Below, one piece after another: positions 503-59,807 of a stretch of DNA of 60,484 nt. The notes below the pieces were generated by a model. The model made no database searches. It was not told the DNA's origin and saw nothing but the letters and a program-made list of their open reading frames with translations. Source of the stretch: a virus (Duplodnaviria > Caudoviricetes); the IMG/VR virus record IMGVR_UViG_3300032213_001151, positions 1 through 60,484 of that record; one strand, written 5' to 3'. Each line of letters starts with the position of its first letter. Position 1 is the stretch's first letter. The translations under genes were made by a program, and so were the position numbers.

Positions 503-518
503 GTGTCCTCAAAGACAC
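503..518. repeat. 16-bp palindrome site 1 (GTGTCCTCAAAGACAC)
   Basis: Intergenic; extended by GGGTA/TACCC arms (498-523). Confidence 0.95.
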
Positions 519-1469: not shown

Positions 1470-1485
1470 GTGTCTTTGAGGACAC
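1470..1485. repeat. 16-bp palindrome site 2 (GTGTCTTTGAGGACAC)
   Basis: Non-coding; reverse complement of site 1. Confidence 0.95.
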
Positions 1486-5226: not shown

Positions 5227-5574
5227 ATGAAGGATGCCTGCTACAAAAAAGTGAAAGCACAGTACAATATATTCCCATCTGCACGTGCATCACAGGCTAT
5301 TGCCAAGTGTCGCAAGGAATCGGGCAGTGTTCGCAAGGGTGAGGCAGGCACATCACTGAAAAGATGGCAGAATGAGAAGTGGGTTGACACCAAATCAGGC
5401 AAACCATGTGGTGCAGGTGGCAAGAATGAGTACTGTCGTCCATCAAAGAGAGTGTCTTCAAAGACACCCGTGACGAAATCGGAGTTGAGTTCGTCAAAGC
5501 TTGCAGCAAAGAAAGCAGAGAAGTCAAGAGTGGGTATGGGAAATCGTGTCTCAAACATTAATAAAAAAAAATAG
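5227..5574 (+). CDS. Small basic protein (SLKRWQNEKWVD...CG...YCRP)
   Basis: 115-aa ORF in operon context. Confidence 0.8.
   Translation: MKDACYKKVKAQYNIFPSARASQAIAKCRKESGSVRKGEAGTSLKRWQNEKWVDTKSGKPCGAGGKNEYCRPSKRVSSKTPVTKSELSSSKLAAKKAEKSRVGMGNRVSNINKKK
5452..5467. repeat. 16-bp palindrome site 3 (GTGTCTTCAAAGACAC)
   Basis: Inside CDS, read as VSSKT. Confidence 0.95.
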
Positions 5575-13384: not shown

Positions 13385-15608
13385 TCTTTACTATGTAGTT
13401 GAGGACTATATTCCTAAGAAAACAATTTCGACTAAGAACCGCAATCGTAGTTGGGTATATGGATATGACCCACAGCACGATGTTGTCGTTATATCTAAGA
13501 CAGGTCAGATTGGAGATGTTCTGAATATCAGGGGTCTTCACATAGCATTACCTGCTGCTCCGGAAAAGTGTCTTCAAAGACACACTAAAGCATCTGAGCA
13601 ATATTGGGAAAGAGAAGAACTTCCTGTTCCTTTATCCAAAATCAATTCAATCTTTCAGTGGAATGAGATGCCCAATCAGTTTAAGAATAGTTGGGTGGAC
13701 TACATTGAGGAACAGTTTGATAGAAGAGAGCAAGGGCTATGGTTCATGAACAATGGACAGCCAACATATATCACGGGAGCACACTATATGTATCTGCAGT
13801 GGTCCAAGATTGATGTAGGATACCCTGACTTCAGAGAGGCAAATAGAATACTGTACATCTTTTGGGAAGCCTGTAAAGCTGACATTCGTTCTTTCGGAAT
13901 GATATATCTTAAGATAAGGCGTTCAGGATTCTCCTTTATGTCATCATCTGAATGCGTAAACATTGCAACCCTTGCAAGAGATGCTCGCATAGGTATATTG
14001 TCTAAGACGGGAGCAGACGCTAAGAAGATGTTCACCGACAAGGTGGTCCCTATCAGTACGAACCTTCCATTCTTTTTCAAGCCTGTGCAAGATGGTATGG
14101 ATAAGCCAAAGACAGAGTTGGCATATCGTGTACCTGCTTCTAAGATTACCAAGAAGAATATGTCTGAGACATCGAATGATGAGATGGATGGCTTGGATAC
14201 CACAATCGATTGGAAGAATACAGAGGACAACTCATATGATGGTGAGAAGCTATTGTTCTTAGCACATGATGAAAGTGGGAAGTGGGTGAAGCCCGTAAAC
14301 ATCCTGAACAATTGGCGTGTTACTAAAACGTGTCTGCGTCTTGGTAGCAAGATTATTGGTAAGTGCATGATGGGTTCAACATCAAACGCATTGTCAAAGG
14401 GTGGTGACAACTTCAAGAAGATGTATGAGGACTCACGTGTATCCTCAAGAAATGCCAACGGTCAAACAAAGTCAGGTCTATACGCACTGTTCATTCCTAT
14501 GGAGTGGAACATGGAAGGCTTTATAGATAGGTATGGTATGCCTGTGCTACGTAAGCCGACTCAGCCTGTTCGTGGAGTTGACGACAATTGGATTATGAAT
14601 GGGGCTATTGACTATTGGGAAGCTGAAGTAGAATCTCTGAAGTCTGATGCAGATGCATTGAACGAATTCTATCGTCAGTTCCCAAGAACAGAGTCCCATG
14701 CTTTCAGAGATGAGAGCAAAGCTGCACTATTCAATCTAACAAAGATTTATCAGCAGATAGATTATAATGACTCGTTGATTCAAGAGCACCACATGACTCG
14801 TGGTTCTTTCCATTGGAAAGATGGGATAAAGGACTCAAAGGTTATATGGTCCCCTGACTCACGTGGCAGGTTCTTGGTGTCTTGGATACCCGGAAAGAAT
14901 TATCAAAACAGAGTTATTGACCGCAATGGAATGAAGTTTCCCGGCAATGACCACATGGGCGCATTCGGTTGTGACTCATATGACATATCAGGTGTTGTTG
15001 TTGGCAAAGGTTCCAATGGTGCATTGCATGGATTGACAGGATACCATGTTGATGAGGGACCTATAAATACTTTCTTCCTTGAATACATTGCTCGTCCACA
15101 GACTGCAGAGATATTCTTTGAAGAAGTGTTGATGGCAATAGCATTTTATGGAATGCCTATCTTGGTGGAGAACAACAAGCCAAGACTTTTGTATCATTTA
15201 AAGAATAGAGGATACAGAGGGTTCTGTCTCAATCGTCCTGACAAGCCATACACCAAGCTGTCTAAGACTGAACGTGAGCTTGGTGGTATACCAAACTCAT
15301 CAGAAGATGTTAAGCAGGCACACGCAGCAGCGATTGAGTCTTACATTGAGAAGCATATCGGTCTTGACTTAGAAGGAAAGTATAGGGACCCTGAAGAGAT
15401 GGGCACTATGCCATTCGTGCGCACATTGGAAGATTGGGCTAAATTTGACATAAACAATCGTACAATGTTTGACGCATCTATCAGTTCGGGGTTGGCAATT
15501 ATGGCAACTCAAAAACATCTGTATCAACCTGAGAAAACACAATCAAAAATTAGCATTAACTTTGCTACATATAACAATAAGGGGACTATAAGCCAAATCA
15601 ATAGATGA
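13320..15608 (+). CDS. terL: Terminase large subunit (start uncertain)
   Basis: KIRRSGFS Walker A, LAHDESGKW Walker B, GST, GCDSYD nuclease motif. Confidence 0.9.
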   Translation: MTMEMESLNQNKGLQNEGQENSLYYVVEDYIPKKTISTKNRNRSWVYGYDPQHDVVVISKTGQIGDVLNIRGLHIALPAAPEKCLQRHTKASEQYWEREELPVPLSKINSIFQWNEMPNQFKNSWVDYIEEQFDRREQGLWFMNNGQPTYITGAHYMYLQWSKIDVGYPDFREANRILYIFWEACKADIRSFGMIYLKIRRSGFSFMSSSECVNIATLARDARIGILSKTGADAKKMFTDKVVPISTNLPFFFKPVQDGMDKPKTELAYRVPASKITKKNMSETSNDEMDGLDTTIDWKNTEDNSYDGEKLLFLAHDESGKWVKPVNILNNWRVTKTCLRLGSKIIGKCMMGSTSNALSKGGDNFKKMYEDSRVSSRNANGQTKSGLYALFIPMEWNMEGFIDRYGMPVLRKPTQPVRGVDDNWIMNGAIDYWEAEVESLKSDADALNEFYRQFPRTESHAFRDESKAALFNLTKIYQQIDYNDSLIQEHHMTRGSFHWKDGIKDSKVIWSPDSRGRFLVSWIPGKNYQNRVIDRNGMKFPGNDHMGAFGCDSYDISGVVVGKGSNGALHGLTGYHVDEGPINTFFLEYIARPQTAEIFFEEVLMAIAFYGMPILVENNKPRLLYHLKNRGYRGFCLNRPDKPYTKLSKTERELGGIPNSSEDVKQAHAAAIESYIEKHIGLDLEGKYRDPEEMGTMPFVRTLEDWAKFDINNRTMFDASISSGLAIMATQKHLYQPEKTQSKISINFATYNNKGTISQINR
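13568..13583. repeat. 16-bp palindrome site 4 (GTGTCTTCAAAGACAC)
   Basis: Inside terL, read as CLQRH. Confidence 0.95.
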
Positions 15609-20671: not shown

Positions 20672-20703
20672 GGGGAGTGTCTTCAAAGACACTCCCCTAT
20701 TTT
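20672..20703 (+). terminator. Terminator hairpin built on palindrome site 5 (20677-20692)
   Basis: GGGGA-GTGTCTTCAAAGACAC-TCCCC then TATTTT. Confidence 0.85.
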
Positions 20704-30607: not shown

Positions 30608-31018
30608 ATGGTATTCAGAATTGAGCCAATAAAAGAAACCGATTACGATGACTTTCTCGTAGGATGGTGGGAATCATGGGGGTGGGAGCCACCACACAGA
30701 GATTTCCTTCCTGATAATGGGACGGGTGGAGTTTGTGTCTTTGAAGACACTACTCCTATTTGTGCGGGATTTCTTTATACCACCAACAGTGGTGTAGCTT
30801 GGGTCGATTGGGTAGTGTCAAGTAAAGAGTACAGAAAGAAGCCACAACGCCAACAGGCAATTGGCTTACTTGTTGAGACTCTTACAAACATTGCAAAGAG
30901 AACCGGACATAAATACACTTATGCCCTGATAAAGCATAGAGGTCTTATTGAGACATATAAATCTCTTGGCTACATCGAGGGTGATAAGTACACAACAGAA
31001 ATGATAAAAGTATTTTAA
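30608..31018 (+). CDS. GNAT-fold acetyltransferase-like protein
   Basis: VVSSKEYRKK...YKSLGY pattern; TATCTTTG at 30594-30601. Confidence 0.7.
   Translation: MVFRIEPIKETDYDDFLVGWWESWGWEPPHRDFLPDNGTGGVCVFEDTTPICAGFLYTTNSGVAWVDWVVSSKEYRKKPQRQQAIGLLVETLTNIAKRTGHKYTYALIKHRGLIETYKSLGYIEGDKYTTEMIKVF
30735..30750. repeat. 16-bp palindrome site 6 (GTGTCTTTGAAGACAC)
   Basis: Inside CDS, read as VFEDT. Confidence 0.95.
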
Positions 31019-36800: not shown

Positions 36801-39800
36801 ACGTGTAATGCAATTGCTATCTGCAAGGAATGAGTTGTCTTCTACACAGAACAGAAAAGAGATAAATGGTGATAAGATACGTGCAATCAACAAAGAGATT
36901 GCAACTATCTCCGAGACCAAGAAACTTCTTCCTGATAACAAAGATGTTGCCGGTGATGGTGTAACCACTGCTGTGAATCTTGACGCAATTATTGGAACAG
37001 AAAGGCAAGGTGTATCACTGTATAAGATAGGTGGTAAGACATTCACCCGTGAACAATTCTTGAGTGAATTGGACAAAATGAAAAACAGAAGGCTTCTTCG
37101 TGCTCGTGTGGATATAAAGAACGATGAGGAAGCTATAAAGATTTACAATAATAAATTAAACAATGCCATTCAAAAGCAAAGCCCAAGTGCGATTTCTATT
37201 CAGTCAGAAACCGGAGTTAGCAAAACGGTGGAGGAAGGAAAACCCCAAACAGAACTTGAAGTCACTACCGAAGAAACTCAAGTCACAGTCCCAAAAGAAG
37301 AAGTAGCAAAAGCAGAAGAAGATTTAGTGTCTTCAAAGACACGGCTTGATGAGCTTGCTGATGCTATACCACAGCGTATTGACTACACTGAGGATGACCT
37401 AACAAACTTTGATGCATTAGAGCAGCAGAAAGCTGATGGTGTTATAACCGCATTGGCTGAGAAAGTTGCTGAAGGGACCAAGCTATCAACTACTGAGAAG
37501 CAGGTGTATAATGCGAACAAAGAAAAGGTTGATGGCGTATCCCAATTGGTTGCAGAGAAAACTTCAATCGAGGAAGAGGTTGCTGACCTTGAGGCTATGC
37601 TAAAGCCAAGAGCAGAGTTCCGTGCTGAAGAAAGAGTTGTTCCTGCTAAGATTGAAAATGCTATAACTGAAGATGGAGAGGTTGATTTCGAAGCAGAAGA
37701 CCAAGTCCGTAAAATTGCAAATGAAAGGAACATCGGTATTACAAGAGACCGTGAGATTGCTTATGTGGCACGTGATGAACAAGGCAATGTAGTCGGTGGT
37801 GCTTTTACTTCATATGACAATCAGACAGGAAAATATACTTTTGATGTAGTTGTAACCAAAGAAGCTGAGGGAAAAGGCATAGGCAGCAAGCTATTGGATG
37901 CTGTTCAAAATATCCCTTCAGATATAGCTGAAATGAATCCCGATGCTACTGTAGAGGTTGATGTCGTAAACCCACAGATGCAGCGTATGTTGTCTAAAAG
38001 AGGGTTTGAAGTTTCTGAAAAAATAGGAGAGGAACGTGTACTTATGGTTCCCGGAAAGAAATCAAAGACAGAGTTCCGTGCTGAAGAGACAACTGCAGAA
38101 GCACCTATCGATGAAGTCGAGGCAATAACTGATGCCATCAATCAGATTGTATCAGGTAATGTATCAACTGAGCTTGCACCTGAATCTACTGAAGGGACCG
38201 TTGATGTTACTGACCTTAGTAAAAGAACAGGTCAAGCTGTACCAACTGTTAGCTTTAAAATTGTAGAAGGTGTTCCGGTTATCTTCACCATCTCTGACCA
38301 ACTTACCACAGGAGAGATTGTAAATCCACAAACAGGAAGAGCTATAGGTAACTTGATGGGTGGTATAGGATTCAACTTCATGAATCAAAATGCTGCTTGG
38401 GCATATACCACTGAGAAGAAAGCATCAGAATCCTTAAAAAAAGCCAAAAAAGTTTACAAAGAGAATAAGCAAACAATAGAGGAGTTTTGGAAAAACAATC
38501 CCGAATACAATGGTCTTGTTCCAATGATGGTTGTGAAGATGGGAGAAGGCTCAATACTATCAAATGAAGCTACAGCCCGTGTCCTTTCAGACAACATACA
38601 AGAATTTCCTGAAGCTAATCGAAAAAGAGCATTAGCTGTTCTTCAGAAAGAACTTACTAATGAGATAAAGTCTCTTACTAAAAGAGCAGATGCTGCAAAA
38701 AGCGTACTTACAAAAAGGAACTATCAAAAAGAAGCAAGTGGGTATCAGAATATTCTTGACCTTATAGCCAAGAACAATATTCAAACGATTGAGCAATTGC
38801 TTGCTCCTGAAGTTTTCACTCAGATAGAGAACCTTAATGCACGTAAGGATATTGTGAATATGATTGGCTATGGCAAACCTAATCTTCCTCGTGAGAAGAA
38901 GGCAATGTCAAAGCCAACCAAGAACTCATTGGTTGCTCGTGCTATCATTGGCATACCGGCTAATCAAGAGGTGAAAGACATTAATCCAAACAAGAGATAT
39001 GAGCTTTTAAACTTAGGAGAAGTAACCAATACGATTACTGAGTCAACAATTGCCGACATATCTAATCGCAGTATCGTGAGCATAGTGGGTGTAGATGTAT
39101 TGAATCCTCGTATTTTGAATACAGAGAATGGTGATTTCAACCATCCAAACTATCAGTATGGATTGGCAGGAAAGTCAATAGGTATTCTACAGGAGCCAAT
39201 TTCAATCGTGAAAGCATACCCTGAAGCGTATAATCTTGCGCTGAAAGGTCTAATAAAAGAAGAATCAAAATTTGTAAAACCAATAAAAGATGGCAAAAAA
39301 ATTGTTAAGCCCGGCAACAGACTCTTCAATCAGTCTATCCCGGAAGCTTCGGAAATTGCGGATAGATATTATGAAAGAACCTATGGGCGAAAGCGTCCTC
39401 GGTACTATGGCTCAAGGTCAATCGACAAAGCAAGAGCCAAAAGAATAGCGGATTCATTCGCTAAGATGGCAGACAATCCGACTGCCCCTGATGTGAAAAA
39501 AGCTTATGAGGCTATGGCACGAGAAACCCTTGAGCAGTATAAATATATGCTTGATGCGGGTTATGTTGTTGAGATAAACAACAATGAGCCATATGGCAAT
39601 TCACGTGAGATGGTTGATGACTTGCGTAATAACAAGCGCATGAAAATCTTCTCTACTGAATCAGGGTTTGGAGATGAAAAGATTACACCTGAACAACGAG
39701 AAAAGAATGTACTACTTCGTGAATCAGGATTCTACGATATTAACGGTGAGACATTGTTGGTTAATGATGTATTCCGTGCTGTCCATGATTTCTTTGGTCA

Positions 39801-44433: not shown

Positions 44434-44457
44434 GTGAGTGTCTTTGAGGACACTCAC
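44434..44457. terminator. Hairpin at the convergence of both transcription units, built on palindrome site 8 (44438-44453)
   Basis: GTGA-GTGTCTTTGAGGACAC-TCAC; T-run follows on the - strand. Confidence 0.75.
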
Positions 44458-45357: not shown

Positions 45358-46836
45358 TTACAATATTAGCAAATCTCTTTTAAAGTGAGAAACAGTGTAG
45401 TCCTTTTTCTTGGACACAGCCTTATGTATCAGGTCCTCAATGCCACCGTTTGAGAATATCCAATACACCTCATTCTCAAGCCTGTCCTTGGTTGTCATCC
45501 TATCACGGCTCTGCCAATAGCTCGTGGCACTGAAGTCAATGTTGTAGTACACGAGACACTCAGCCTTCTTCAATGATATACCTTCTCTGCCTGAGACAAT
45601 CTGCAATGCTATGCTCTTGTCGGTGTCTTCAAAGACACTTAGCTCGGTGGTCAATGAGTCTCCGAATACCTGCTGCAATGCATTGAGTTCTTCTTTGAAC
45701 TTGTAGAAGATACCAATCTTGCGGTACTTGAACCGTTCCTTTATGTACTTTGCTTTGCTCAGGTCAACCACCATTGACTTACCACTCTCAAACTTTATGG
45801 TCCCGCTGTACAGTTGGTGAAGCTTGCTCATGAGTTTCACCGGTGTATCACCCAATATCACCTCTGACTTACCACTGATGACCAAGTCCTTCTTCAATCT
45901 TGAAATCAACTTATAGGTTGATTCCTCTAAGTCTACCCGCAGAATCTCCTCGGTTGTCTTTACTACAAACCCTGAGTCCTGCTGCGACCACCTGATTGTG
46001 TATGGAAGCATCGCATCAATGATGGTCTGATGCCCATTTGAGTAGTCGTTCACAATCATCCCGTTTATTTTCTTCTGCGTTTTATTAACGTAGTCATCAG
46101 CAAAACGGTAGAAGTTGCTGTACTTCTTAAATGGATTACTTCCAATGCCATAGACTTGATGAAACATTTGAGAGTATGACTCAGGGGTTGGTGTACCTGA
46201 CAGCAGTATCACTCTGCTGTTTGAGTCTCTCACCAAGTCTCTAACTTGCATAGCTCTAAGACTTGGCTTTGGGAAAGCTCCCATGCTGTGCGCCTCATCG
46301 CATATGATGACATCCCACTTTACTTGAGGCAGCTTGTGTATGCTCTCGTAGTTCATAACGAACAATGCATATGACGGGCATAGCTTGTCTGCGTCTTGTG
46401 TGATTGAGCTGATGGCTTTCTTCTTGGTCAGGAACAGAACGTGCTCTACGTTTGGTAGGTTGTCGCAGATGCTAAGGCTCGTCAAAGTCTTACCTGTTCT
46501 GACTTCCATCGCAAGGTATACAAATCCATGTTCGTTAATTATTTCTGATGCTTTTGAGACGATACTCTTTTGGTAGTCTCTTAATTCAATTTGATTATTC
46601 ATTTCGTGTTCGTGTAATTTTTTATAGTACTCTATACTTCTCTCCAATCTATCTACTACATCTTTGGCTACATTATGCTTTAGGACCCTCTCTGTTAAAC
46701 TTTTATTACCCCTGCGTACCTTCACCTCTCTCGTGTCCATAATAATGCCGTAGAGGACCTCGCATCGCTTTAGCATATCAAGGTTAGAGTACGCAGGGAT
46801 TCTTTCAATAAGGTCCATGCCTTTGTAGTCCATCAT
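45358..46836 (-). CDS. SF2 (SNF2-like) helicase
   Basis: RTGKT, DEAH, SGTP, GREGISL, QSRDR. Confidence 0.9.
   Translation of the reverse strand: MMDYKGMDLIERIPAYSNLDMLKRCEVLYGIIMDTREVKVRRGNKSLTERVLKHNVAKDVVDRLERSIEYYKKLHEHEMNNQIELRDYQKSIVSKASEIINEHGFVYLAMEVRTGKTLTSLSICDNLPNVEHVLFLTKKKAISSITQDADKLCPSYALFVMNYESIHKLPQVKWDVIICDEAHSMGAFPKPSLRAMQVRDLVRDSNSRVILLSGTPTPESYSQMFHQVYGIGSNPFKKYSNFYRFADDYVNKTQKKINGMIVNDYSNGHQTIIDAMLPYTIRWSQQDSGFVVKTTEEILRVDLEESTYKLISRLKKDLVISGKSEVILGDTPVKLMSKLHQLYSGTIKFESGKSMVVDLSKAKYIKERFKYRKIGIFYKFKEELNALQQVFGDSLTTELSVFEDTDKSIALQIVSGREGISLKKAECLVYYNIDFSATSYWQSRDRMTTKDRLENEVYWIFSNGGIEDLIHKAVSKKKDYTVSHFKRDLLIL
45623..45638. repeat. 16-bp palindrome site 9 (GTGTCTTCAAAGACAC)
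   Basis: Inside the helicase gene, read as VFEDT. Confidence 0.95.
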
Positions 46837-51338: not shown

Positions 51339-51617
51339 TTATTTGGTATCGCTTATGTCTTGGTACTTCTCTATGATAATCAAGCAAGTGTCACCAACCT
51401 TCCATCTGCCATCGTATTCAAATGGTATTGAGACTTCTCTTGTATGCTTAGCTGTTTGCACCCATATCTTAGGAAGAGTTCTGTACCTTGAGCCTATATA
51501 TCCACTTTGTGTTGCTGAGATTTTACCATCGATAACTTCCATGCCAATGTACTGTAGATTGTCAGAACATGACAGCAGAAAGATTGATAGGAACAGTGTC
51601 TTCAAAGACACACTCAT
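51339..51617 (-). CDS. Putative lipoprotein (92 aa)
   Basis: MSVSLKTLFLSIFLLSC signal with lipobox-like LLSC. Confidence 0.65.
   Translation of the reverse strand: MSVSLKTLFLSIFLLSCSDNLQYIGMEVIDGKISATQSGYIGSRYRTLPKIWVQTAKHTREVSIPFEYDGRWKVGDTCLIIIEKYQDISDTK
51596..51611. repeat. 16-bp palindrome site 10 (GTGTCTTCAAAGACAC)
   Basis: First codons of the lipoprotein gene (VSLKT). Confidence 0.95.
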
Positions 51618-53341: not shown

Positions 53342-53530
53342 TTAGTGGATTGGTTTGTCGAGAACTTCAGGGCGCATGATAGCACCAAGTTCTTCGAATA
53401 GATTGTTGAATGTGGCAGGCTTGCCTTGGCTGACTTCGTACTCGTGTTCAGTAGTGTCTTTGAAGACACGGTAGTCTACATCATCATGAGACTCCTGCTC
53501 ACGAATAGCTATGAATAATCTTTTTGACAT
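53342..53530 (-). CDS. Hypothetical protein
   Basis: 62 aa, first gene after the promoter. Confidence 0.65.
   Translation of the reverse strand: MSKRLFIAIREQESHDDVDYRVFKDTTEHEYEVSQGKPATFNNLFEELGAIMRPEVLDKPIH
53454..53469. repeat. 16-bp palindrome site 11 (GTGTCTTTGAAGACAC)
   Basis: Inside CDS, read as VFKDT. Confidence 0.95.
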
Positions 53531-54694: not shown

Positions 54695-55024
54695 TTACTT
54701 ACAGAATACAAGGTCTTTAAATCTCACATAGATATTACCCTCATGGGTTATCTTATCTGCTGCTGTCCAAGAGTCCTGAGTAACGAAGCCAAGACTGATG
54801 CTCTCTGATACTCTGCCTGCATATATGCATACACTTTTGTTGGTATTCAATGCATGGTTGAGACCTTCTTGTCCCTCAATCGGTGCTCTCATAAGCACAT
54901 CTTCCTCGTTATCCTTTCCCCATACTGCTTGAAGGTTGAATAGTCCCGCATCCAATACAGCTTGTGCTTTGTCGGTGACATCTATCCACAGATGCCCGTC
55001 TTGTGACTTGATTAGCTTTTCCAT
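54695..55024 (-). CDS. Hypothetical protein
   Basis: 109-aa ORF. Confidence 0.7.
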   Translation of the reverse strand: MEKLIKSQDGHLWIDVTDKAQAVLDAGLFNLQAVWGKDNEEDVLMRAPIEGQEGLNHALNTNKSVCIYAGRVSESISLGFVTQDSWTAADKITHEGNIYVRFKDLVFCK

Positions 55025-55043
55025 ATGGTTTCAAATTTAATTT

Positions 55044-55592
55044 TTATCCGTAAACTAATTCTCCTAAAGCAAGATATTGGAACACTGTGTCGCTTGTTGC
55101 TGCGTCACCATTCTCATCCAACTCCTTCAGCAAACTGTCTGAGGATTCACTCATGCACTTGTTAATCCTATATTGGAATGTCTTAATGCTAAGTTCTCCG
55201 ATAGGCTCATCGTCCTCGTTCTCTACATCATAGATTGGAACCACTACTCCCTTGTCATACACCGCCTCGAACACTCTCTCTGAGAATGCTTTGTCACCGT
55301 TTCTTGGGACAGCTTTATCTATGATGTCTATAGACTTTGCATTCATGTAGTACCAATAATTGCTACCTCCCTCAAGTGCAGTGATGAATATATTCTCCAA
55401 CACCTCTCTTGATACATCTAAACTTACTGTGATTTTCATTTTGTCTGTGTTAATTAGTTTGATTAATTGTTGTGCCCACTCTTCTGTTGAGAATCTACCT
55501 ACGACCTCACCGTTCAGGTAAACCCTCCACTCTTTTATGCCTGACACGGTGGCTTGCGTCAGATTTATTATATGCCCTTTCATTTGCTGCAT
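55044..55592 (-). CDS. Hypothetical protein (TALEGGSNYW...GELVYG)
   Basis: 182-aa ORF. Confidence 0.7.
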   Translation of the reverse strand: MQQMKGHIINLTQATVSGIKEWRVYLNGEVVGRFSTEEWAQQLIKLINTDKMKITVSLDVSREVLENIFITALEGGSNYWYYMNAKSIDIIDKAVPRNGDKAFSERVFEAVYDKGVVVPIYDVENEDDEPIGELSIKTFQYRINKCMSESSDSLLKELDENGDAATSDTVFQYLALGELVYG

Positions 55593-55801
55593 ACTTTGAT
55601 TGATGAGTAGTAGCAGATGTCCTCAAGTATTGCGTCCTTGGTCTGCTCATCCCGGCTCTCGTAGTATTCATTCTTGAGGCTGCTGTAGAACCCCTTTAGC
55701 TCGTCAGCATCTAACTCGTTCAGGACATAAGCAGCCTGCTCATGCAAGCCCTGACTCTTGAACACCTTGATTGCATTGAATCTTTGCTCAGTGGTTGCCA
55801 T
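55580..55801 (-). CDS. Hypothetical protein
   Basis: 73-aa ORF. Confidence 0.65.
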   Translation of the reverse strand: MATTEQRFNAIKVFKSQGLHEQAAYVLNELDADELKGFYSSLKNEYYESRDEQTKDAILEDICYYSSIKVCSK

Positions 55802-55802
55802 C

Positions 55803-56072
55803 TTAGTTGTTCTTCTTTAGGTAGTCGAGGAATGCTTCAGCCATAACTTCAGGACTCAGGTAGGTCTCGTACAGTTGGTGGGTTGCCAACAGTAGAATCT
55901 CGTTGTCGGTTAGCTTCTCCTGAATTAAATCTCCAAGCTTGCTTAGCTTCTTGTCTTCACCATCAGATAGGAATGCTTGAATGACTTCGAATACTTTTTT
56001 CTCCATGTCTTCTTTGTGGCATCCGAATGCTTTGATTGTTTCTTTTGCGGTGTGGTTTAATTGTAATTCCAT
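55803..56072 (-). CDS. Hypothetical protein
   Basis: 89-aa ORF. Confidence 0.7.
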   Translation of the reverse strand: MELQLNHTAKETIKAFGCHKEDMEKKVFEVIQAFLSDGEDKKLSKLGDLIQEKLTDNEILLLATHQLYETYLSPEVMAEAFLDYLKKNN

Positions 56073-56092
56073 TTTGTTATTTGTTTAAGGGT

Positions 56093-56136
56093 TGGCAGGC
56101 GTGGGAGGAATCGAACCCCCCAATAACCATTCGCCT
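56093..56136 (-). ncRNA. tRNA-like minihelix (44 nt) ending GCCA
   Basis: AGGCG-AATGGTTAT-TGGGGGG-TTCGATT-CCTCCCA-CGCCT-G-CCA. Confidence 0.65.
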
Positions 56137-56137
56137 T

Positions 56138-56153
56138 GTGTCTTTGAAGACAC
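56138..56153. repeat. 16-bp palindrome site 12 (GTGTCTTTGAAGACAC)
   Basis: Between the GATase-GGCT stop and the minihelix. Confidence 0.95.
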
Positions 56154-56155
56154 TG

Positions 56156-57250
56156 TTACAGTAGGTTGTCTACATCATTCTGAGTATACCACTCGTTGCA
56201 TCCAACACAGCAGTAGTTCCCGAACCCGTCATGCTCAAGGTCTCTGTAGCATGAAGTGCAGTATGGTGTGTCAACTATCTCCTCGTCACACTCTTCCTCT
56301 ATGTCAGCAGGATAGTTGTCAAACTTGTCGAATGAACTGAAGTCAAGTTGCTTGTATGTGCTTGACGCAGTTGGCTCGAATGGGTGTGGGCGATATGGCT
56401 TCTGCTCGAAAGACTCATGCAGCGTATCAAAACTACTCACTCGCTTGGTTGGGTTGAAGTATATCCAAGCATTGACTACGTTGCCCCTTGCTGTCACGAT
56501 TGGAATCTTCTTACGGCAATACCAATTGGGGTGTCCCTCAAGTTGGTCTAACTTGGCAAGCACTGTGTCACTCACCTTGAACAAGTCAACCTTGACATTG
56601 TGCCCCACTCCCTTCTGTTCTATCATGTATGGTATGCCTTCAACGAGCATGGGATACTTGTCTTCTGTTTTGCCTGAGCCAATGTATCTTGAGTCGGTAA
56701 GGTATCTGTAGTAGTTGTTGTTGCCCTTCTTCAGTGTGCCATACACAGCGACAAGATTGTTCTGCAACACGTTGTCCTTTGAGTACCACACACCATCCTT
56801 GAAAGTCCAAAGGTCACGGTTGTATAGTTGGAATGTGCGGGTGCGCACGTTGATAGTGATGAACCTTACAAGTCTGTTCTTCTCCAAGGTATCCTTCCAC
56901 TTGTGCCTTGGCACTGAGTCCAATGACTCAGCTAATACCTTTGAGTCGCACGTGTTGTTGTCACCAAGCCCATGAATAGTACCGTTCATCATCAGGTACT
57001 CGTGACTGTTTGCACCACACCTGAATGGGTGTGTGTTTGACTTACCGACCTTGCCTACTGTGGCGTATCGGAAGTGTGCAATGAAAGGACGGTCAGTGTC
57101 GAGCACCTTCCACTGCTTTGATGTGTGATAGCTCACCTCAAATGTGTCGAGCCAAACTACACCTAACCCGTGTGGGTTGATGCGTGATGAGTTCTTGAGA
57201 ACCTCTTTAGGAATCTCAATGTTGCGTTGCTTTACGATTATGATACACAT
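56156..57250 (-). CDS. Class II glutamine amidotransferase fused to gamma-glutamylcyclotransferase and a Zn ribbon
   Basis: Cys2, NPHGLG, AHFRYAT, NTHPF, NG; VAVYGTLKKG...LDQLEG; CTSC/CVGC. Confidence 0.85.
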   Translation of the reverse strand: MCIIIVKQRNIEIPKEVLKNSSRINPHGLGVVWLDTFEVSYHTSKQWKVLDTDRPFIAHFRYATVGKVGKSNTHPFRCGANSHEYLMMNGTIHGLGDNNTCDSKVLAESLDSVPRHKWKDTLEKNRLVRFITINVRTRTFQLYNRDLWTFKDGVWYSKDNVLQNNLVAVYGTLKKGNNNYYRYLTDSRYIGSGKTEDKYPMLVEGIPYMIEQKGVGHNVKVDLFKVSDTVLAKLDQLEGHPNWYCRKKIPIVTARGNVVNAWIYFNPTKRVSSFDTLHESFEQKPYRPHPFEPTASSTYKQLDFSSFDKFDNYPADIEEECDEEIVDTPYCTSCYRDLEHDGFGNYCCVGCNEWYTQNDVDNLL

Positions 57251-57272
57251 ATATTTGATTTGATTTTGGGCA

Positions 57273-57288
57273 GTGTCTTTGAAGACAC
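57273..57288. repeat. 16-bp palindrome site 13 (GTGTCTTTGAAGACAC)
   Basis: Between the tRNA-like CCA end and the GATase start. Confidence 0.95.
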
Positions 57289-57298
57289 AGAACCCGAT

Positions 57299-57372
57299 TG
57301 GCAGTCAGGGCAGGATTCGAACCTACACAATAGGGCATCGCCCATAGCGTTTACCAATTTCGCCACCTGACT
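57299..57372 (-). tRNA. Atypical tRNA-like RNA (74 nt), isotype undetermined
   Basis: AGTCAGG/CCTGACT acceptor, GCGAAATTGGTAAACGC D arm, GTAGG-TTCGAAT-CCTGC T arm, G-CCA; short aberrant anticodon region. Confidence 0.7.
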
Positions 57373-57403
57373 ATTTGTATTACTATTGTGTACTGAACTG
57401 CTA

Positions 57404-57435
57404 CAAAGGTAATACATATTGTGAACATCACCAAA
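57404..57435 (-). promoter_or_regulatory. Promoter TTTG-N20-TACCTTTG
   Basis: Full -33/-7 consensus upstream of the tRNA-like RNA. Confidence 0.8.
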
Positions 57436-57583
57436 CTTTTTTTGCAATTAATTTTGCTCTGTCATGCTGCCAATTAGTTTGGTGCATGGCTCTCTCAATT
57501 GCCTCCCACTTTGTGCCTGCTGACACCCTCGCTACCACCATGCCCTTGTGATATACGTTCCACAGATAGTTGCTCTCCATCAT
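57428..57583 (-). CDS. Hypothetical protein (51 aa), not in ORF track
   Basis: MMESNYLWNVYHKG...KKVW. Confidence 0.6.
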   Translation of the reverse strand: MMESNYLWNVYHKGMVVARVSAGTKWEAIERAMHQTNWQHDRAKLIAKKVW

Positions 57584-57597
57584 GTTACTTGTTATTT

Positions 57598-58233
57598 TCA
57601 GGTGTAAAGTAGGTTTGTTTGTACTGTCTCAACGTGTGAACTCACAATGTCTCTTGCCTTCTGAATATCTTTCGGACGCACGATAAGGTAATGATGCACA
57701 CAGAACACATTGCTTGACTCGCAGGTCATAAGCTTGGTCTGTATCTTTGCCTTGCTTAGTGCCTTCTTGACTGCTGTCAATTCAGCCTCAGCTATGTCGG
57801 ACCTGCATGGTGAATCGTCCCACATACCCGTGTCATTGGCTCCGCACACTGCATATGCAGGCTGCTCATATCCTCGCATCCCGTCAGTGCTTACCCATGA
57901 CTTGCTCATGTTCCATATATTGCCTGCTGCTTCCTCGTCCACAGTAGGTGGTGTTGATGTGTTTACTTTGGTCCATGTCCCATCCCACTCGTTGCCATTG
58001 AGGAACCATTTCCCCTTGCTTACTCTTATGTCAACTCCACGCAGTCCATTTAGCCTGTCTTTTGTGGTCTTGCTGAACCACCCTGCGTTGGTGATATACA
58101 GCCCTTCTGCACGGTGCTCTGCTATCAGGTTGTCGAAAAGATACAGTGCCTTACCATCAGTAAAACTGTTGGATTTACGTAGTGGTGTGCCACTCTGAAA
58201 TGCCTCAATGATTTCGCTTGTTATCTGTCTCAT
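57598..58233 (-). CDS. Hypothetical protein
   Basis: 211 aa; AGWFSKTTKDRLN. Confidence 0.75.
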   Translation of the reverse strand: MRQITSEIIEAFQSGTPLRKSNSFTDGKALYLFDNLIAEHRAEGLYITNAGWFSKTTKDRLNGLRGVDIRVSKGKWFLNGNEWDGTWTKVNTSTPPTVDEEAAGNIWNMSKSWVSTDGMRGYEQPAYAVCGANDTGMWDDSPCRSDIAEAELTAVKKALSKAKIQTKLMTCESSNVFCVHHYLIVRPKDIQKARDIVSSHVETVQTNLLYT

Positions 58234-58234
58234 G

Positions 58235-58513
58235 TTACTTGTAATTAAAGTACCTCTTTAGCTCGGTGATTTGGTCTTGCAGTTCACCGTTCTCTGCATC
58301 GTAGTAGAAGGTCTCTTCTACCCATCTGAAGAAGGCAGCCATCTGCCCTTGCATCCCCTCGGACAGCACATTGAACAGCTCCCTTGCCTGCGTGTGCTGC
58401 CCGTTGGCTCTGCTCTCCATGATGTACATGAAGAACTCCTCAACACTGTTGAATTCCAATTCAACGATTTTGTTTCTCAACTCTAAGTCCTTGTGCTCTG
58501 TTATTTGTATCAT
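58235..58513 (-). CDS. Hypothetical protein
   Basis: Start set at MIQIT, downstream of the promoter. Confidence 0.7.
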   Translation of the reverse strand: MIQITEHKDLELRNKIVELEFNSVEEFFMYIMESRANGQHTQARELFNVLSEGMQGQMAAFFRWVEETFYYDAENGELQDQITELKRYFNYK

Positions 58514-58541
58514 ATTGTTTGTTGTTTGTTTGTTTCGGGTA

Positions 58542-58573
58542 CAAAGGTAGTACATAGTTTGTATATATGCAAA
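58542..58573 (-). promoter_or_regulatory. Promoter TTTG-N20-TACCTTTG
   Basis: Full -33/-7 consensus. Confidence 0.8.
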
Positions 58574-58783
58574 TTATTTTTCAACTTTTTTTTCATCGCT
58601 GTGAATCCTTACTGCGAGGACGGTTACGTTCTTTGCTGACACCTGACCCCACCCCGCTGAACCTTTGCGTATGTAGAACAGTCTGCCATCATGGCTAAGG
58701 CTTGCCCACTGCTCATATAGATGCAGTGGGAGCCTTGCTATTGGCTTGTCTATCCTTATCAGGTACACGTTTGTCTTTATCAT
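58574..58783 (-). CDS. Hypothetical protein
   Basis: 69 aa, coupled to the upstream gene. Confidence 0.6.
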   Translation of the reverse strand: MIKTNVYLIRIDKPIARLPLHLYEQWASLSHDGRLFYIRKGSAGWGQVSAKNVTVLAVRIHSDEKKVEK

Positions 58784-59061
58784 CTGCCACCCCCCTGCAA
58801 TAAGGTCTTGAACCCATTGTACACGTTGCGTTTGTACGCCTGACTTTGGTAGTCAAATTTGTTCGACATCAGTATGCTCGTGATGCTGCAAAATCTTATC
58901 TCAATTTGATGCAGCACCTCTTCGAAGGTCTTGCCGTCCATGAGATTCTTAATCACCTCATCACGTGTGCTCACGATAGGGTTGTCGAATGTGCCGTTGG
59001 CTTTTGCGTTGATGTGCGCATCAGCAATGGCTTTTACTTGTTTTGAAATGCGTGTTGTCAT
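58780..59061 (-). CDS. Hypothetical protein
   Basis: 93 aa, directly after hammerhead A. Confidence 0.7.
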   Translation of the reverse strand: MTTRISKQVKAIADAHINAKANGTFDNPIVSTRDEVIKNLMDGKTFEEVLHQIEIRFCSITSILMSNKFDYQSQAYKRNVYNGFKTLLQGGGR

Positions 59062-59086
59062 ATCTGTTTTTTGTTATTGGTTGTTT

Positions 59087-59135
59087 GTGTTTCGTCCTTT
59101 CGGACTCATCAGCCTGAGCACTCACTCAGGGACAC
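59087..59135 (-). ncRNA. Type III hammerhead ribozyme A
   Basis: GUGUC^CCUGAG-UGAGUG-CUCAGG-CUGAUGA-GUCC-GAAA-GGAC-GAA-ACAC. Confidence 0.95.
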
Positions 59136-59141
59136 GGGGCA

Positions 59142-59157
59142 GTGTCTTTGAAGACAC
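59142..59157. repeat. 16-bp palindrome site 14 (GTGTCTTTGAAGACAC)
   Basis: Apex of a GGGGUG...UGCCCC hairpin abutting hammerhead A. Confidence 0.95.
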
Positions 59158-59183
59158 CACCCCTACTCACTACCACATGAGTA

Positions 59184-59501
59184 TTATCTTTCAGGGAACA
59201 CGTGTGCCCATATTGAGTTGTCACTTACCCACTCATCAGCAGGAACGCGTGGTGCAAGCCAATTCAGTGCGTCAATTATCACCTGACTTGTTGTCGGGTC
59301 ACCCTCCCAATCGTTCATGTAGGTCTTGTCCTCAGACAGTTCGTCCCATATGTAGTTGTTCAGGTCGCAGTCATTGAGATTGCGTTGGTAGTACGTGGTG
59401 ATGTAGTGTTCACCGTTGTGGTGTAGGCTCGCTACTCCACCGTCTTCGGTAATGATGTCCAATGACTCATCAACTTGGCTTTGGATTACTCTGTATTTCA
59501 T
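59184..59501 (-). CDS. Acidic hypothetical protein
   Basis: 105 aa between the hammerheads. Confidence 0.7.
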   Translation of the reverse strand: MKYRVIQSQVDESLDIITEDGGVASLHHNGEHYITTYYQRNLNDCDLNNYIWDELSEDKTYMNDWEGDPTTSQVIIDALNWLAPRVPADEWVSDNSIWAHVFPER

Positions 59502-59701
59502 GCTGTTAGGTATGGTGTTGGGTTAATGTTGTAGGTCTTGCATAGGTTAACGATAACAGATGCTTGTTGTGTGTAGATGACAGCGTCAAACCTTTCGGCA
59601 GCCACTTCTATCCATTTTTGTGCGGTCTCATAGGTGTTGAACATCTTGATGTGAATCGTGTCCTCGTCTTGGTCAACGCAGGCGGTCCAATGTGTTGTCA
59701 T
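59498..59701 (-). CDS. Hypothetical protein
   Basis: 67 aa between the hammerheads. Confidence 0.7.
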   Translation of the reverse strand: MTTHWTACVDQDEDTIHIKMFNTYETAQKWIEVAAERFDAVIYTQQASVIVNLCKTYNINPTPYLTA

Positions 59702-59732
59702 ATTTGTGTGTTGTTTGTTGGTTTAGTCGGTT

Positions 59733-59783
59733 GCTGTTTCGTCCTTTTGGACTCGTCAGGGACAGTGCTCACTGTCCGACAGC
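59733..59783 (-). ncRNA. Type III hammerhead ribozyme B
   Basis: GCUGUC^GGACAG-UGAGCA-CUGUCC-CUGACGA-GUCC-AAAA-GGAC-GAA-ACAGC. Confidence 0.95.
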
Positions 59784-59791
59784 GGGGGGAA

Positions 59792-59807
59792 GTGTCCTTG
59801 AAGACAC
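59792..59807. repeat. 16-bp palindrome site 15 (GTGTCCTTGAAGACAC)
   Basis: Apex of a G/C-rich hairpin abutting hammerhead B. Confidence 0.95.

What the first reader, a model, noticed from the sequence alone, without database searches (positions are those of the whole stretch)
56093..57435. Symmetric cassette: promoter, tRNA-like RNA, palindrome, GATase-GGCT, palindrome, minihelix
Seen: the enzyme gene is bounded by identical, same-orientation 16-mers and, outside them, two tRNA-like elements that share A1-U72 and G-CCA. Inference: tRNA punctuation could release a monocistronic mRNA with hairpin-protected ends. Alternatively the 16-mers act as cassette exchange sites, or the RNAs are substrates of the amide-bond enzymes.
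Basis: partly seen in the sequence, partly recalled or inferred. Interest (0 to 1): 0.72.

Follow-up and report, generated by a model that had tools for sequence, protein, structure and literature searches.

The report
Phage mRNA punctuation by tRNA-like RNAs
A phage enzyme gene is flanked by a repeated hairpin and two stripped-down tRNA look-alikes that most likely mark where the host's tRNA-trimming enzymes cut the phage message, the same job that self-cutting hammerhead RNAs do at the same spots in related phages.

Summary
It is not a special symmetric cassette.

**The 16-mer.** It is a dispersed palindrome with 15 sites in this complete 60.5-kb phage genome, against 0.05 matches expected. 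Five sites lie inside reading frames. The motif is conserved across a large clade of ~60-kb uncultured phages.

**The two RNAs.**
- One is a 74-nt tRNA look-alike whose anticodon loop has only 5 nt.
- The other is a 44-nt acceptor/T-arm minihelix. In the 7 clade copies found by the model built from four of them, 10 of its 12 pairs show compensatory changes.

**The decisive comparison.** The window also holds two type III hammerhead ribozymes, each 3-6 nt after a copy of the palindrome.
- Downstream of the enzyme gene, four genomes have the minihelix and two have a hammerhead.
- Downstream of a second gene the pattern is reversed.

**Best reading (0.6).** This is RNA-processing punctuation of an early operon. 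RNase P/Z substrates and self-cleaving ribozymes are interchangeable cutters placed beside a hairpin.

**What is not supported.** Cassette exchange at the 16-mers, and the RNAs as substrates of the enzyme.

**Limits.** No RNA data were available. The palindrome's own role is unresolved. Earlier agents of this scan noted the same hammerhead/minihelix interchange in other phages. I found no paper describing it.

The parts
57404..57435 (-). Promoter-like site of Bacteroidota type: TTTG (57435-57432), 20 nt, TAccTTTG (57411-57404). The start site is not mapped.
   Evidence: Sequence. Exact 14-mer. The -7 box is conserved after the stop codon of the upstream gene in L006-L008. The consensus TAnnTTTG/-33 TTTG is quoted in PMC7366714 (passage).
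57299..57372 (-). 74-nt tRNA-like RNA. It has acceptor, D and T arms and G73-CCA, but an anticodon arm of 3-4 G-C pairs with a 5-nt (or 3-nt) loop. It is not a decoding tRNA.
   Evidence: ARAGORN 'tRNA-???'. Rfam tRNA 44.8 bits. Fold. Homologues with the same acceptor sit in other slots: L012 6444, L009 6393.
57273..57288 (.). Palindromic 16-mer (PAL) in the 5' leader, 22 nt before the ATG.
   Evidence: It sits in the same position in L007-L010.
56156..57250 (-). Gene for a 364-aa protein. It has a weak N-terminal class-II GATase-like region (starts MC...), a GGACT/AIG2-like domain (aa 167-268) and a Cys-rich tail.
   Evidence: Pfam. PHROG 2520 'gamma-glutamyl cyclotransferase'. PDB AIG2-like chains.
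56138..56153 (.). PAL 16-mer, 2 nt after the stop codon and 1 nt before the minihelix.
   Evidence: Same position in L006-L010.
56093..56136 (-). 44-nt acceptor/T-arm minihelix. A UGG-containing linker replaces the D and anticodon arms. It ends in G-CCA, 20 nt before the next ATG (56072).
   Evidence: Fold. Model R1 gives 62.4 bits. In 7 copies, 10 of 12 pairs change on both sides.
59792..59807 (.). PAL (1 mismatch) inside an extended G/C stem, downstream of gene F7.
59731..59785 (-). Type III hammerhead ribozyme with core CUGACGA...GAAA and cleavage triplet GUC.
   Evidence: Rfam RF00008, 41.6 bits, E 1.1e-5, below the gathering score of 48.5. Stem covariation.
59142..59157 (.). PAL inside an extended stem.
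59084..59138 (-). Type III hammerhead ribozyme with core CUGAUGA...GAAA and cleavage triplet GUC.
   Evidence: Rfam RF00008, 41.4 bits, E 1.3e-5..
58540..58553 (-). Second promoter-like -7 box, 1 mismatch to the 14-mer.
503..518 (.). PAL (1 mismatch) with a 5-bp stem extension, 28 nt before the ATG of gene F7 (475).
1470..1485 (.). PAL (1 mismatch) in the region between the divergent gene blocks.
5452..5467 (.). PAL inside ORF 5227-5574.
13568..13583 (.). PAL inside ORF 13320-15608.
20677..20692 (.). Intergenic PAL with a 5-bp extension and a T-rich tail, terminator-like.
30735..30750 (.). PAL inside ORF 30608-31018.
37327..37342 (.). PAL inside the 3520-aa ORF.
44438..44453 (.). PAL (1 mismatch) at the convergent junction of the + and - gene blocks.
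45623..45638 (.). PAL inside the SNF2-type helicase gene (45358-46836, -).
51596..51611 (.). PAL 7 nt after the stop of gene 51619-52359 (-).
53454..53469 (.). PAL in the short conserved ORF/spacer 'F16'.

Best explanation
The stretch is one transcription unit of the early (- strand) operon of a complete ~60.4-kb uncultured phage, probably of Bacteroidota. The enzyme gene has its own host-type promoter. Its message is delimited by RNA-processing punctuation, not by recombination sites.

**Proposed mechanism (inferred).**
- Host RNase P cuts at the 5' side of the two tRNA-like elements.
- RNase Z or exonucleases trim their 3' side.
- This leaves the upstream RNA ending 1 nt after the palindromic hairpin.
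- It leaves the downstream RNA starting with, or just after, a compact structure.

**What is shown.**
- The elements are real and under structural selection.
- They keep only the parts of a tRNA that these enzymes read: a 12-layer acceptor/T stack, the T loop, and a GG-bearing linker.
- At two gene boundaries the minihelix and a self-cleaving type III hammerhead replace each other between related phages.
- In the fetched loci every hammerhead sits directly after the same hairpin.

**What is not shown.** Cleavage itself, the enzymes involved and the resulting ends are inferred.

**The 16-mer.** It is a separate, clade-wide palindrome (GTGTCTT-YR-AAGACAC). In intergenic copies it is lengthened into a stable hairpin. 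It also occurs bare inside genes, so it is probably recognised as a sequence by an unknown phage factor. End protection is at most one of its uses.
For: **1. Hammerheads in the window.** Two type III hammerheads lie 3-6 nt after PAL copies.
- 11 clade hammerhead-like sequences show 96.4% paired cells against 31-45% with slid partners.
- 10 of 15 pairs change on both sides, and the CUGANGA and GAAA cores are invariant.

**2. Slot after the enzyme gene.** The next gene, F6, is the same in all six genomes.
- Minihelix in WIN, L006, L007 and L008.
- Rfam-supported hammerhead in L009 and L010 (44.4 and 48.4 bits).

**3. Slot after gene F7: the reverse pattern.**
- Hammerhead in WIN and L011.
- Minihelix in L009, L010 and L013.

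**4. Minihelix structure.**
- Model R1, built from 4 orthologues, also finds L013, L011 and L009.
- On the 7 sequences, 92.6% of cells pair against 54-60% when slid.
- 10 of 12 pairs have compensatory changes, and 0 of 500 shuffles reach this.

**5. The class is widespread.** A pattern that does not include the acceptor stem gave 90 distinct hits in viral contigs.
- 58 of 90 have at least 5 contiguous acceptor pairs, against 8 and 7 of 90 in slid controls.
- The modal stack is 12 bp.
- Only 5 of 90 are ARAGORN tRNAs.

**6. A reduction series.** tRNA-like elements sharing one acceptor are 91 nt (L012), 74 nt (WIN) and 53 nt (L009). The middle shrinks while the acceptor and T arms stay.

**7. 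PAL and modules in the early region.** Of 33 PAL sites in 8 early-region loci:
- 11 are followed by a hammerhead-like sequence;
- 9 by a tRNA-like element;
- 9 sit at most 30 nt before a start codon (classed by eye).

**8. Strand of the hairpin.** PAL flank stems carry 13 G.U against 4 A.C on the sense strand.

**9. Published precedent.** Hammerheads flanking genes in prophages have been proposed to cut long phage transcripts (PMC3088659, passages).
Against: - **No RNA data.** No RNA run was listed, so no end is mapped.
- **Hammerhead scores.** Both window hammerheads score below Rfam's gathering score (41.4 and 41.6 against 48.5).
- **Variant hammerheads.** 3 of the 11 hammerhead-like sequences (L008, and two in L012) have a U.U next to the core. 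Rfam did not report them.
- **CCA is not conserved.** Only 5 of 14 tRNA-like elements in the clade end in CCA (by eye).
- **Short leader.** The gap between hairpin and minihelix is 1 nt in 6 of 9 cases. This may be poor for the leader-binding protein of bacterial RNase P.
- **Few events.** The swaps may reflect as few as two evolutionary events.
- **Upstream element is not general.** The tRNA-like element is in that slot only in this genome. L012 has an unrelated one there.
- **PAL is mostly alone.** In a broad sample, only 10 of 141 distinct PAL sites lie next to a hammerhead or T loop.
- **PAL is often intragenic.** 55 of 126 sites lie inside open frames of at least 150 codons. The hairpin's main role may therefore have nothing to do with RNA ends.
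- **Weak general rule.** In unrelated phages a hairpin upstream of minihelices is only weakly enriched: z below -2 in 8 of 58 against 4 of 58.
Confidence: 0.6

Rival explanations
1. The tRNA-like elements stay attached and act as tRNA mimics rather than cutting signals. For example, they could form a 3'-terminal tRNA-like structure that is CCA-repaired or bound by elongation factor and stabilises or boosts translation of the upstream message. Alternatively they could be decoys for tRNA-binding host factors.
For: - The minihelix follows the stop codon by 19 nt and ends in G-CCA.
- The 1-nt spacing from the hairpin could disfavour RNase P.
- The acceptor/T stack and the GG linker are also what CCA-adding enzyme and EF-Tu read (established knowledge, recalled).
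Against: - CCA is present in only 5 of 14 clade elements.
- The same slots hold hammerheads, which share with the tRNA-like elements only the capacity to yield a cleaved RNA.
- Elements also sit in leaders directly after promoters: WIN 57372, L012 2881.
Confidence: 0.14
2. The 16-mer is first of all a binding site for a phage protein, such as a global regulator or roadblock, on DNA or on the hairpin. Its presence on both sides of the gene merely reflects its density in the early region. This is compatible with the best explanation for the tRNA-like elements and rivals only the 'end-protecting hairpin' role.
For: - The exact sequence is kept at 15 sites here, at 16, 8 and 13 sites in relatives, and in at least 119 stretches of viral contigs.
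- All 7 G003 sites tested are syntenic with window sites, in flanks that are only 69-87% identical.
- The five intragenic sites are read in three different frames.
- 55 of 126 sites in a broad sample lie inside long open frames.
- One lineage (L011) has a compensated variant, GTCTCTT..AAGAGAC.
Against: - No candidate binding protein was identified.
- Intergenic copies are lengthened by non-conserved complementary flanks: 28 of 35 extended copies lie outside long ORFs.
- Those flanks show more G.U than A.C on the sense strand, 13 against 4. This points to an RNA hairpin.
Confidence: 0.4
3. The two tRNA-like elements are decaying tRNA genes with no present function, and the palindromes are ordinary terminators.
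For: - The anticodon arm of the 74-nt element is defective.
- Presence of the elements varies among relatives.
- The PAL at 20677 looks like an intrinsic terminator.
Against: - The minihelix stems keep pairing through compensatory changes.
- The T loop is invariant across all four orthologues.
- Hammerheads take the same slots.
- The terminator scan did not call the two PALs that flank the gene, which lack a T run.
- PAL also lies inside genes.
Confidence: 0.08
4. The identical 16-mers are exchange sites at which the enzyme gene moves as a cassette.
For: - In L011 and L012 the gene has different neighbours on both sides. A PAL sits at both junctions in L011, and at the downstream junction only in L012, whose upstream slot holds a tRNA-like element.
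- Shared 16-mers could serve as microhomology (inference).
Against: - There are 15 sites genome-wide, five of them inside genes at conserved positions.
- Among WIN, L006, L007 and L008, most gene gains and losses (families F19, F21, F24, F14/F15 and several singletons) lie at junctions without a PAL.
- L013 and L014 carry the gene without any PAL.
- No recombinase was seen in the genes scanned.
Confidence: 0.05
5. The tRNA-like RNAs are substrates or cofactors of the GATase/GGACT enzyme, through aminoacyl-tRNA-like chemistry.
For: - The RNAs are adjacent to the gene.
- Both share A1-U72, G73 and CCA.
Against: - Orthologues of the gene have a hammerhead (L009, L010), only PALs (L011) or nothing (L013, L014) in these slots.
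- tRNA-like elements flank unrelated genes (after F7, F26, F1, F33).
- CCA is not conserved.
Confidence: 0.03

Closest known systems
Hammerhead ribozymes flanking genes in prophages (Perreault et al. 2011, PMC3088659; passages read)
   Same: - Several hammerheads sit in one orientation between genes of a phage transcript.
- Processing into gene-length mRNAs was proposed.
- Cleavage was shown in vitro for three arrangements.
   Different: - Here the ribozymes are type III and are always preceded by one conserved palindrome.
- At the same boundaries in relatives they are replaced by tRNA-like minihelices.
- The passages I read do not mention such a replacement.
tRNA punctuation and t-elements of mitochondrial transcripts (Forner et al. 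2007, PMC1920247; title and start of abstract seen in listing; the punctuation model itself is recalled)
   Same: tRNA-like structures without a decoding role serve as RNase P/Z entry points that create mRNA 5' and 3' ends.
   Different: - The setting is a bacteriophage using host bacterial enzymes.
- The elements are reduced to the acceptor/T stack.
- They are coupled to a sequence-conserved hairpin and are interchangeable with ribozymes.
MALAT1/mascRNA 3'-end formation (recalled, no call)
   Same: RNase P cuts 5' of a tRNA-like element. The upstream RNA end is protected by a structure immediately before the cut.
   Different: - That is a eukaryotic nuclear lncRNA protected by a triple helix.
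- Here it is a phage mRNA with a simple hairpin.
Acceptor/T-arm minihelix model substrates of bacterial RNase P (recalled; 'minihelix' and RNase P co-occur in PMC6614837, listing only)
   Same: A 12-bp coaxial acceptor/T stack with T loop and 3' RCCA, as in the window's 44-nt element.
   Different: - Those are laboratory constructs.
- Here it is a natural, conserved element with a GG linker that could mimic the D loop.
- CCA is often absent in relatives.
Theta (HDV-like) ribozymes next to phage tRNAs (PMC10879173; title and start of abstract in listing)
   Same: Small ribozymes and tRNA-shaped RNAs are combined in phage genomes for RNA 3'-end processing.
   Different: - Theta ribozymes process functional suppressor tRNAs.
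- Here the tRNA-like RNAs cannot decode and stand in for the ribozyme.
Stoperators of mycobacteriophage L5 (recalled, no call)
   Same: A short motif is repeated some tens of times across a phage genome, in intergenic and some intragenic places.
   Different: - Stoperators are asymmetric and orientation-dependent, and a known repressor binds them.
- The motif here is palindromic and no binder is known.

Membership tests
tRNA (Rfam RF00005), 74-nt element | Score at or above the family's gathering score | tested here: met
   44.8 bits against 29.
tRNA (decoding) | 5-bp anticodon stem with a 7-nt loop bearing an anticodon | tested here: not met
   - ARAGORN reports 'tRNA-???' with a 2-letter 'anticodon'.
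- The Rfam alignment has 4 instead of 6 loop positions and two non-canonical stem pairs.
- The fold gives GGGC-GAU-GCCC.
Hammerhead ribozyme type III (RF00008), 59785-59731 and 59138-59084 | Catalytic core CUGANGA, GAAA and an NUH cleavage triplet | tested here: met
   The cores are CUGACGA and CUGAUGA, with CGAAAC and GUC in both. The core columns are invariant in 11 clade sequences.
Hammerhead ribozyme type III (RF00008) | Three stems supported by covariation | tested here: met
   96.4% of cells pair, 10 of 15 pairs change on both sides, and all 6 pairs of stem I covary.
Hammerhead ribozyme type III (RF00008) | Rfam gathering score | tested here: not met
   41.6 and 41.4 bits against 48.5, E about 1e-5.
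Hammerhead ribozyme type III (RF00008) | Self-cleavage | not testable with these tools
   Needs in vitro transcription.
RNase P/Z minihelix-type substrate (t-element-like), 56136-56093 | Coaxial acceptor/T stack of about 12 layers with a 7-nt T loop | tested here: met
   - In the window element: 5 pairs plus 1 mismatch plus 6 pairs.
- Covariation.
- The modal stack is 12 in 90 viral hits.
RNase P/Z minihelix-type substrate | 3' RCCA after the discriminator | tested here: inconclusive
   It is present in both window elements, but in only 5 of 14 clade elements (by eye).
RNase P/Z minihelix-type substrate | Cleavage by RNase P at position +1 | not testable with these tools
   No RNA run was listed. 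An enzyme assay is needed.
Gene cassette with exchange sites | Gain/loss end points coincide with the repeat, and a cognate recombinase is present | tested here: not met
   - Most differences among WIN, L006, L007 and L008 lie at junctions without a 16-mer.
- No recombinase was found among the 17 proteins scanned with Pfam. The remaining genes were not scanned.
Intrinsic terminator (for the two 16-mers flanking the gene) | G+C-rich hairpin followed by a T run | tested here: not met
   The consensus scan of 55500-58000 lists neither PAL. Their tails are not T-rich.
GGACT/AIG2-like gamma-glutamyl(amine) cyclotransferase (PF06094) | Pfam score above the cut-off | tested here: met
   81.3 bits against 22.8, aa 167-268. 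PHROG 2520. PDB AIG2-like chains at E 3.5e-7.
Class-II (Ntn) glutamine amidotransferase | Pfam score above the cut-off and an N-terminal Cys nucleophile | tested here: inconclusive
   - GATase_6 scores 20.2 against 27 and GATase_4 scores 18.6 against 23.
- The protein starts Met-Cys.
- That Cys2 is the nucleophile is recalled knowledge.

The most novel reading that the evidence does not exclude
Phage early operons use a modular RNA-punctuation grammar. At a gene boundary, often right after a lineage-specific hairpin, any one of several cutting devices can be plugged in. The device can be a self-cleaving hammerhead or a stripped-down tRNA that recruits host RNase P/Z.

The acceptor/T-arm minihelix would then be an unrecognised, widespread class of phage RNA. 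One narrow pattern alone gave at least 57 distinct examples in viral contigs.

This would also answer what hammerheads in phages are for: plain mRNA cutting, since a protein/RNP-dependent cutter can replace them.
Probability: 0.45. Interest if true: 0.78.

Novelty: new variant of a known kind. Interest (0 to 1): 0.6.

Why it matters
The biological purpose of hammerhead ribozymes in phage genomes has stayed open since they were found flanking prophage genes. A natural swap between a ribozyme and a host-RNase substrate at the same gene boundary argues that the selected function is simply a cut in the transcript. It also makes that idea directly testable.

The finding points to a large set of unannotated tRNA-like minihelices in uncultured phages. 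Gene callers and tRNA finders miss these or mislabel them.

The conserved 16-mer, kept even inside genes, is a separate lead to an unknown sequence-specific factor in a large clade of ~60-kb phages.

Tried and rejected
- **RNA evidence.** No RNA holder was listed for 55000-60400.
- **Known phages.** Only 3 weak DNA matches were found. The best is a 60.9-kb uncultured podovirus whose GGCT gene has no PAL, hammerhead or minihelix nearby.
- **Sigma-70 promoter and terminator scan.** It was no better than shuffles and called neither PAL.
- **The 14-mer promoter box as a family.** There were 11 matches with at most 3 mismatches, against 6.5 expected. This is not significant, and only the two best were used.
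- **Ribozymes near unrelated minihelices.** An Rfam gathering scan of 11 of the 100 pattern-hit loci (138.6 kb) found only tRNAs and one tmRNA. This is uninformative, because the clade's own hammerheads also fall below the gathering score.
- **'Hairpin before minihelix' as a general rule.** The effect is weak: 8 of 58 against 4 of 58 with z below -2, Mann-Whitney p 0.016.
- **PAL as a partner of cutting modules in general.** Only 10 of 141 sites in the broad sample are adjacent to one, so the tie holds mainly in early regions.
- **PAL as an N4-type hairpin promoter.** I considered this because of the 3520-aa ORF. Pfam sees only a GNAT domain there, and PAL sites lie in both orientations inside late genes. 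I dropped the idea without further test.
- **F7 as an amidoligase.** This was a lead from earlier notes. Pfam gave no hit for two orthologues and the window's N-terminal part, so it is not confirmed here.
- **Literature.** Five full-text searches found no paper describing tRNA-like minihelices as phage mRNA punctuation. Supplements were not seen.
- **Coverage of the relatives.** Model R1 and Rfam were run on the 7-kb loci, not on whole relatives. The exception is the hammerhead and PAL searches through handles.
Full report
**What the window is**

The window is a whole virus record of 60,484 bases, rated 100% complete.
- The 'terminal repeat' is a 123-nt overlap of the two ends. One gene, called F7 here, runs across it.
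- Genes on the + strand fill 2.4-44.4 kb. They include a chaperonin-like gene and a 3520-aa ORF.
- Genes on the - strand fill 44.5-60.5 kb and continue into 1-1.2 kb. They include an SNF2-type helicase, a primase with a BT4734-like domain, a Sak annealing protein and many small ORFs.
- The finding lies in this second, early-type block.

Read on the - strand, the region contains the following elements.
- **Promoter-like site.** TTTG and TAccTTTG lie 20 nt apart at 57435-57404. This fits the Bacteroidota sigma-A consensus quoted in PMC7366714 (passage). The -7 box lies after the stop codon of the upstream gene and is kept in L006-L008.
- **A 74-nt tRNA-like RNA at 57372-57299** (ARAGORN; Rfam 44.8 bits).
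- **The first 16-mer at 57288-57273.**
- **A 364-aa gene.** It has a solid GGACT/AIG2-like domain and a sub-threshold class-II amidotransferase-like N-terminus.
- **The second, identical 16-mer at 56153-56138.**
- **A 44-nt minihelix at 56136-56093**.

Both RNAs have A1-U72, G73 and CCA.

**The 16-mer is not a cassette boundary**

- GTGTCTTTGAAGACAC, allowing up to 2 mismatches, gives 26 strand matches. These are 15 sites: 11 exact and 4 with one mismatch. The expectation is 0.05.
- Eleven sites lie in the early block or between the blocks. Four lie inside late ORFs and one inside the helicase gene.
- The five intragenic copies are read in three different frames.
- Relatives carry 16, 8 and 13 copies. 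One relative has a compensated variant and one has none.
- All seven sites tested in relative G003 are syntenic with window sites, in flanks only 69-87% identical.
- In that broad sample, 55 of 126 sites lie inside open frames of at least 150 codons, against 80 of 126 control positions.
- Of the 35 copies with complementary flanks, 28 lie outside such frames.
- The motif is therefore GTGTCTT-YR-AAGACAC. It is kept as a sequence, and lengthened into a real hairpin where it is intergenic.
- In those longer stems the sense strand carries 13 G.U against 4 A.C. This is suggestive of RNA pairing but weak.
- 'Same orientation' refers only to the central dinucleotide, and the two copies differ in it in L008.

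**The key result: hammerheads in the same places**

- A permissive Rfam scan found two type III hammerheads on the - strand, at 59785-59731 and 59138-59084. Each lies 3-6 nt after a PAL copy.
- Their scores (41.6 and 41.4 bits) are below the gathering score of 48.5, but the cores are canonical.
- Eleven hammerhead-like sequences from the clade align without gaps.
  - 96.4% of cells pair, against 31-45% with slid partners.
  - 10 of 15 pairs change on both sides.
  - Three of the eleven (L008, and two in L012) have a U.U beside the core and were not reported by Rfam. They may be weak or dead.
- Whole-record searches found 1-3 hammerheads in six relatives and none in four.

**Swaps at two gene boundaries**

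Nine relatives of the enzyme gene were fetched, at 46-74% identity.

| Gene boundary | Minihelix | Hammerhead | Other |
|---|---|---|---|
| After the enzyme gene (next gene F6 in the six genomes with a module) | WIN, L006, L007, L008, placed 1 nt after PAL | L009, L010 (Rfam-supported) | L011: PAL only; L013, L014: nothing |
| After gene F7 | L009, L010, L013 | WIN, L011 | – |

These rows rest.
- The two devices share no sequence. Their one common property is that each leads to a cleaved RNA, by self-cleavage or, as proposed here, by a host enzyme.
- The number of independent events may be as low as two.

**The minihelix is a selected structure**

- A covariance model built from the four orthologues also found copies in L013, L011 and L009.
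- On the seven sequences, 92.6% of cells pair, against 54-60% when slid.
- 10 of 12 pairs change on both sides, and 0 of 500 shuffles reach this. The alignment is fitted to the model, so it leans towards the structure.
- An independent check used a DNA pattern covering only the linker and the T arm.
  - Of 90 distinct hits, 58 have at least 5 contiguous acceptor pairs, against 8 and 7 in slid controls.
  - The stack peaks at 12 layers, and only 5 of the 90 are ARAGORN tRNAs.
  - The 57 minihelix-like hits have 49 different acceptor sequences.
  - 53 of 58 have an ORF starting within 80 nt downstream on the same strand, against 34 of 58 on the other strand.

**The 74-nt element**

- Its anticodon arm is three or four G-C pairs closing a 5-nt or 3-nt loop, so it cannot decode.
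- It is absent from this slot in L006-L010. There the promoter is followed directly by PAL and the start codon.
- Elements with the same acceptor occur in other slots: 91 nt in L012 and 53 nt in L009.
- L012 has an unrelated tRNA-like element in the promoter-to-gene slot.
- Across 14 tRNA-like elements in the clade, the acceptor stem, T arm and a GG in the linker persist. The middle is free to shrink, and CCA is present in only 5 (by eye).

**How it most likely works**

- The gene is transcribed from its own promoter, and probably also by read-through from upstream.
- RNase P would cut at A57372 and at A56136. RNase Z or exonucleases would trim the 3' sides.
- The products would be a message that begins near the leader hairpin and ends 1 nt after the second hairpin.
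- The hammerheads give the same geometry, with cleavage 5-14 nt after the hairpin.
- Gene F7 is framed in the same way: PAL at 518-503, then PAL plus a hammerhead at 59807-59731. The 'symmetry' is therefore the operon's general style.
- All cleavage steps are inferred.

**What argues against this reading**

- There are no RNA data.
- The hammerhead scores are sub-threshold.
- The leader before the minihelix is very short.
- CCA is not conserved.
- In the broad sample only 10 of 141 PAL sites adjoin a hammerhead or T loop, against 0 of 141 control positions. The palindrome must therefore have a role of its own, possibly as a protein site.

- *Cassette exchange.* Most gene differences among the four closest genomes lie at junctions without a PAL. 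The gene also exists without PALs in L013 and L014.
- *RNAs as substrates of the enzyme.* The gene occurs with hammerheads or with nothing, and tRNA-like elements flank unrelated genes.

**Comparison with what is known**

- Hammerheads flanking prophage genes, with processing proposed, are in print (PMC3088659).
- tRNA-like processing signals are known from organelles: t-elements (PMC1920247, listing only) and the tRNA punctuation model (recalled).
- MALAT1/mascRNA is a further parallel (recalled).
- Five full-text searches found no description of minihelix punctuation in phages, or of its exchange with ribozymes.
- Earlier agents of this scan reported the same idea in four other phage genomes. 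They also reported the enzyme pair with hammerheads in two related genomes. I reached the reading, before opening those notes. The notes are not independent evidence.

**Verdict**

- The cassette framing is wrong.
- The lead inference is the best-supported one.
- I rate this a new variant of a known kind, with interest 0.6.

Noticed in passing
window 1-123 and 60362-60484; 2-475 (-) and 59823-60476 (-): The record's 'direct terminal repeat' is a 123-nt end overlap. One gene (F7, about 317 aa in relatives) runs across it, so the record is probably a circular or permuted assembly. Earlier notes call F7 a divergent amidoligase, but Pfam gave no hit.
   Followed up: partly
window 5452, 13568, 30735, 37327, 45623: The 16-mer lies inside ORFs, read in three different frames (VSSKT, CLQRH, VFEDT), at positions conserved in relative G003. 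No explanation so far accounts for this selection on the sequence itself.
   Followed up: partly
window 33868-44430 (+): A 3520-aa ORF whose only Pfam hit is a GNAT acetyltransferase domain at aa 1286-1381. No polymerase domain was seen.
   Followed up: no
window 2399-4018 (+): A phage-encoded Cpn60/GroEL-type chaperonin (197.9 bits).
   Followed up: no
L012 6444-6534, window 57299-57372, L009 6393-6445: A size series of tRNA-like elements (91, 74 and 53 nt) sharing one acceptor stem. It looks like stepwise loss of the anticodon and variable region.
   Followed up: partly
L008 328-391; L012 2314-2376 and 4121-4183: Hammerhead-like sequences with a U.U mispair next to the core (positions 10.1/11.1). 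Rfam did not report them, so they may be inactive or variant ribozymes.
   Followed up: no
L015-L114 (viral contigs): At least 57 distinct acceptor/T-arm minihelices occur in unrelated viral contigs. 14 are followed by ACGA rather than CCA. One locus (L052) has three in tandem about 110-120 nt apart.
   Followed up: partly
L009 6370-6392 and L010 6880-6903: A different small hairpin (GAAGGGT-AAC-ACCTTC) precedes a tRNA-like element where other slots have the 16-mer.
   Followed up: no
window 55044-55801 and 58235-58555 (-): Three small ORFs of this region fall into one family (F1) by BLASTP clustering, which suggests paralogous early genes.
   Followed up: no
window 1986-2079 (+): A weak 'L20 leader' Rfam hit (E 1.5). 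It is just a G+C-rich hairpin followed by a T run, that is, a terminator-like site before the + strand block.
   Followed up: no
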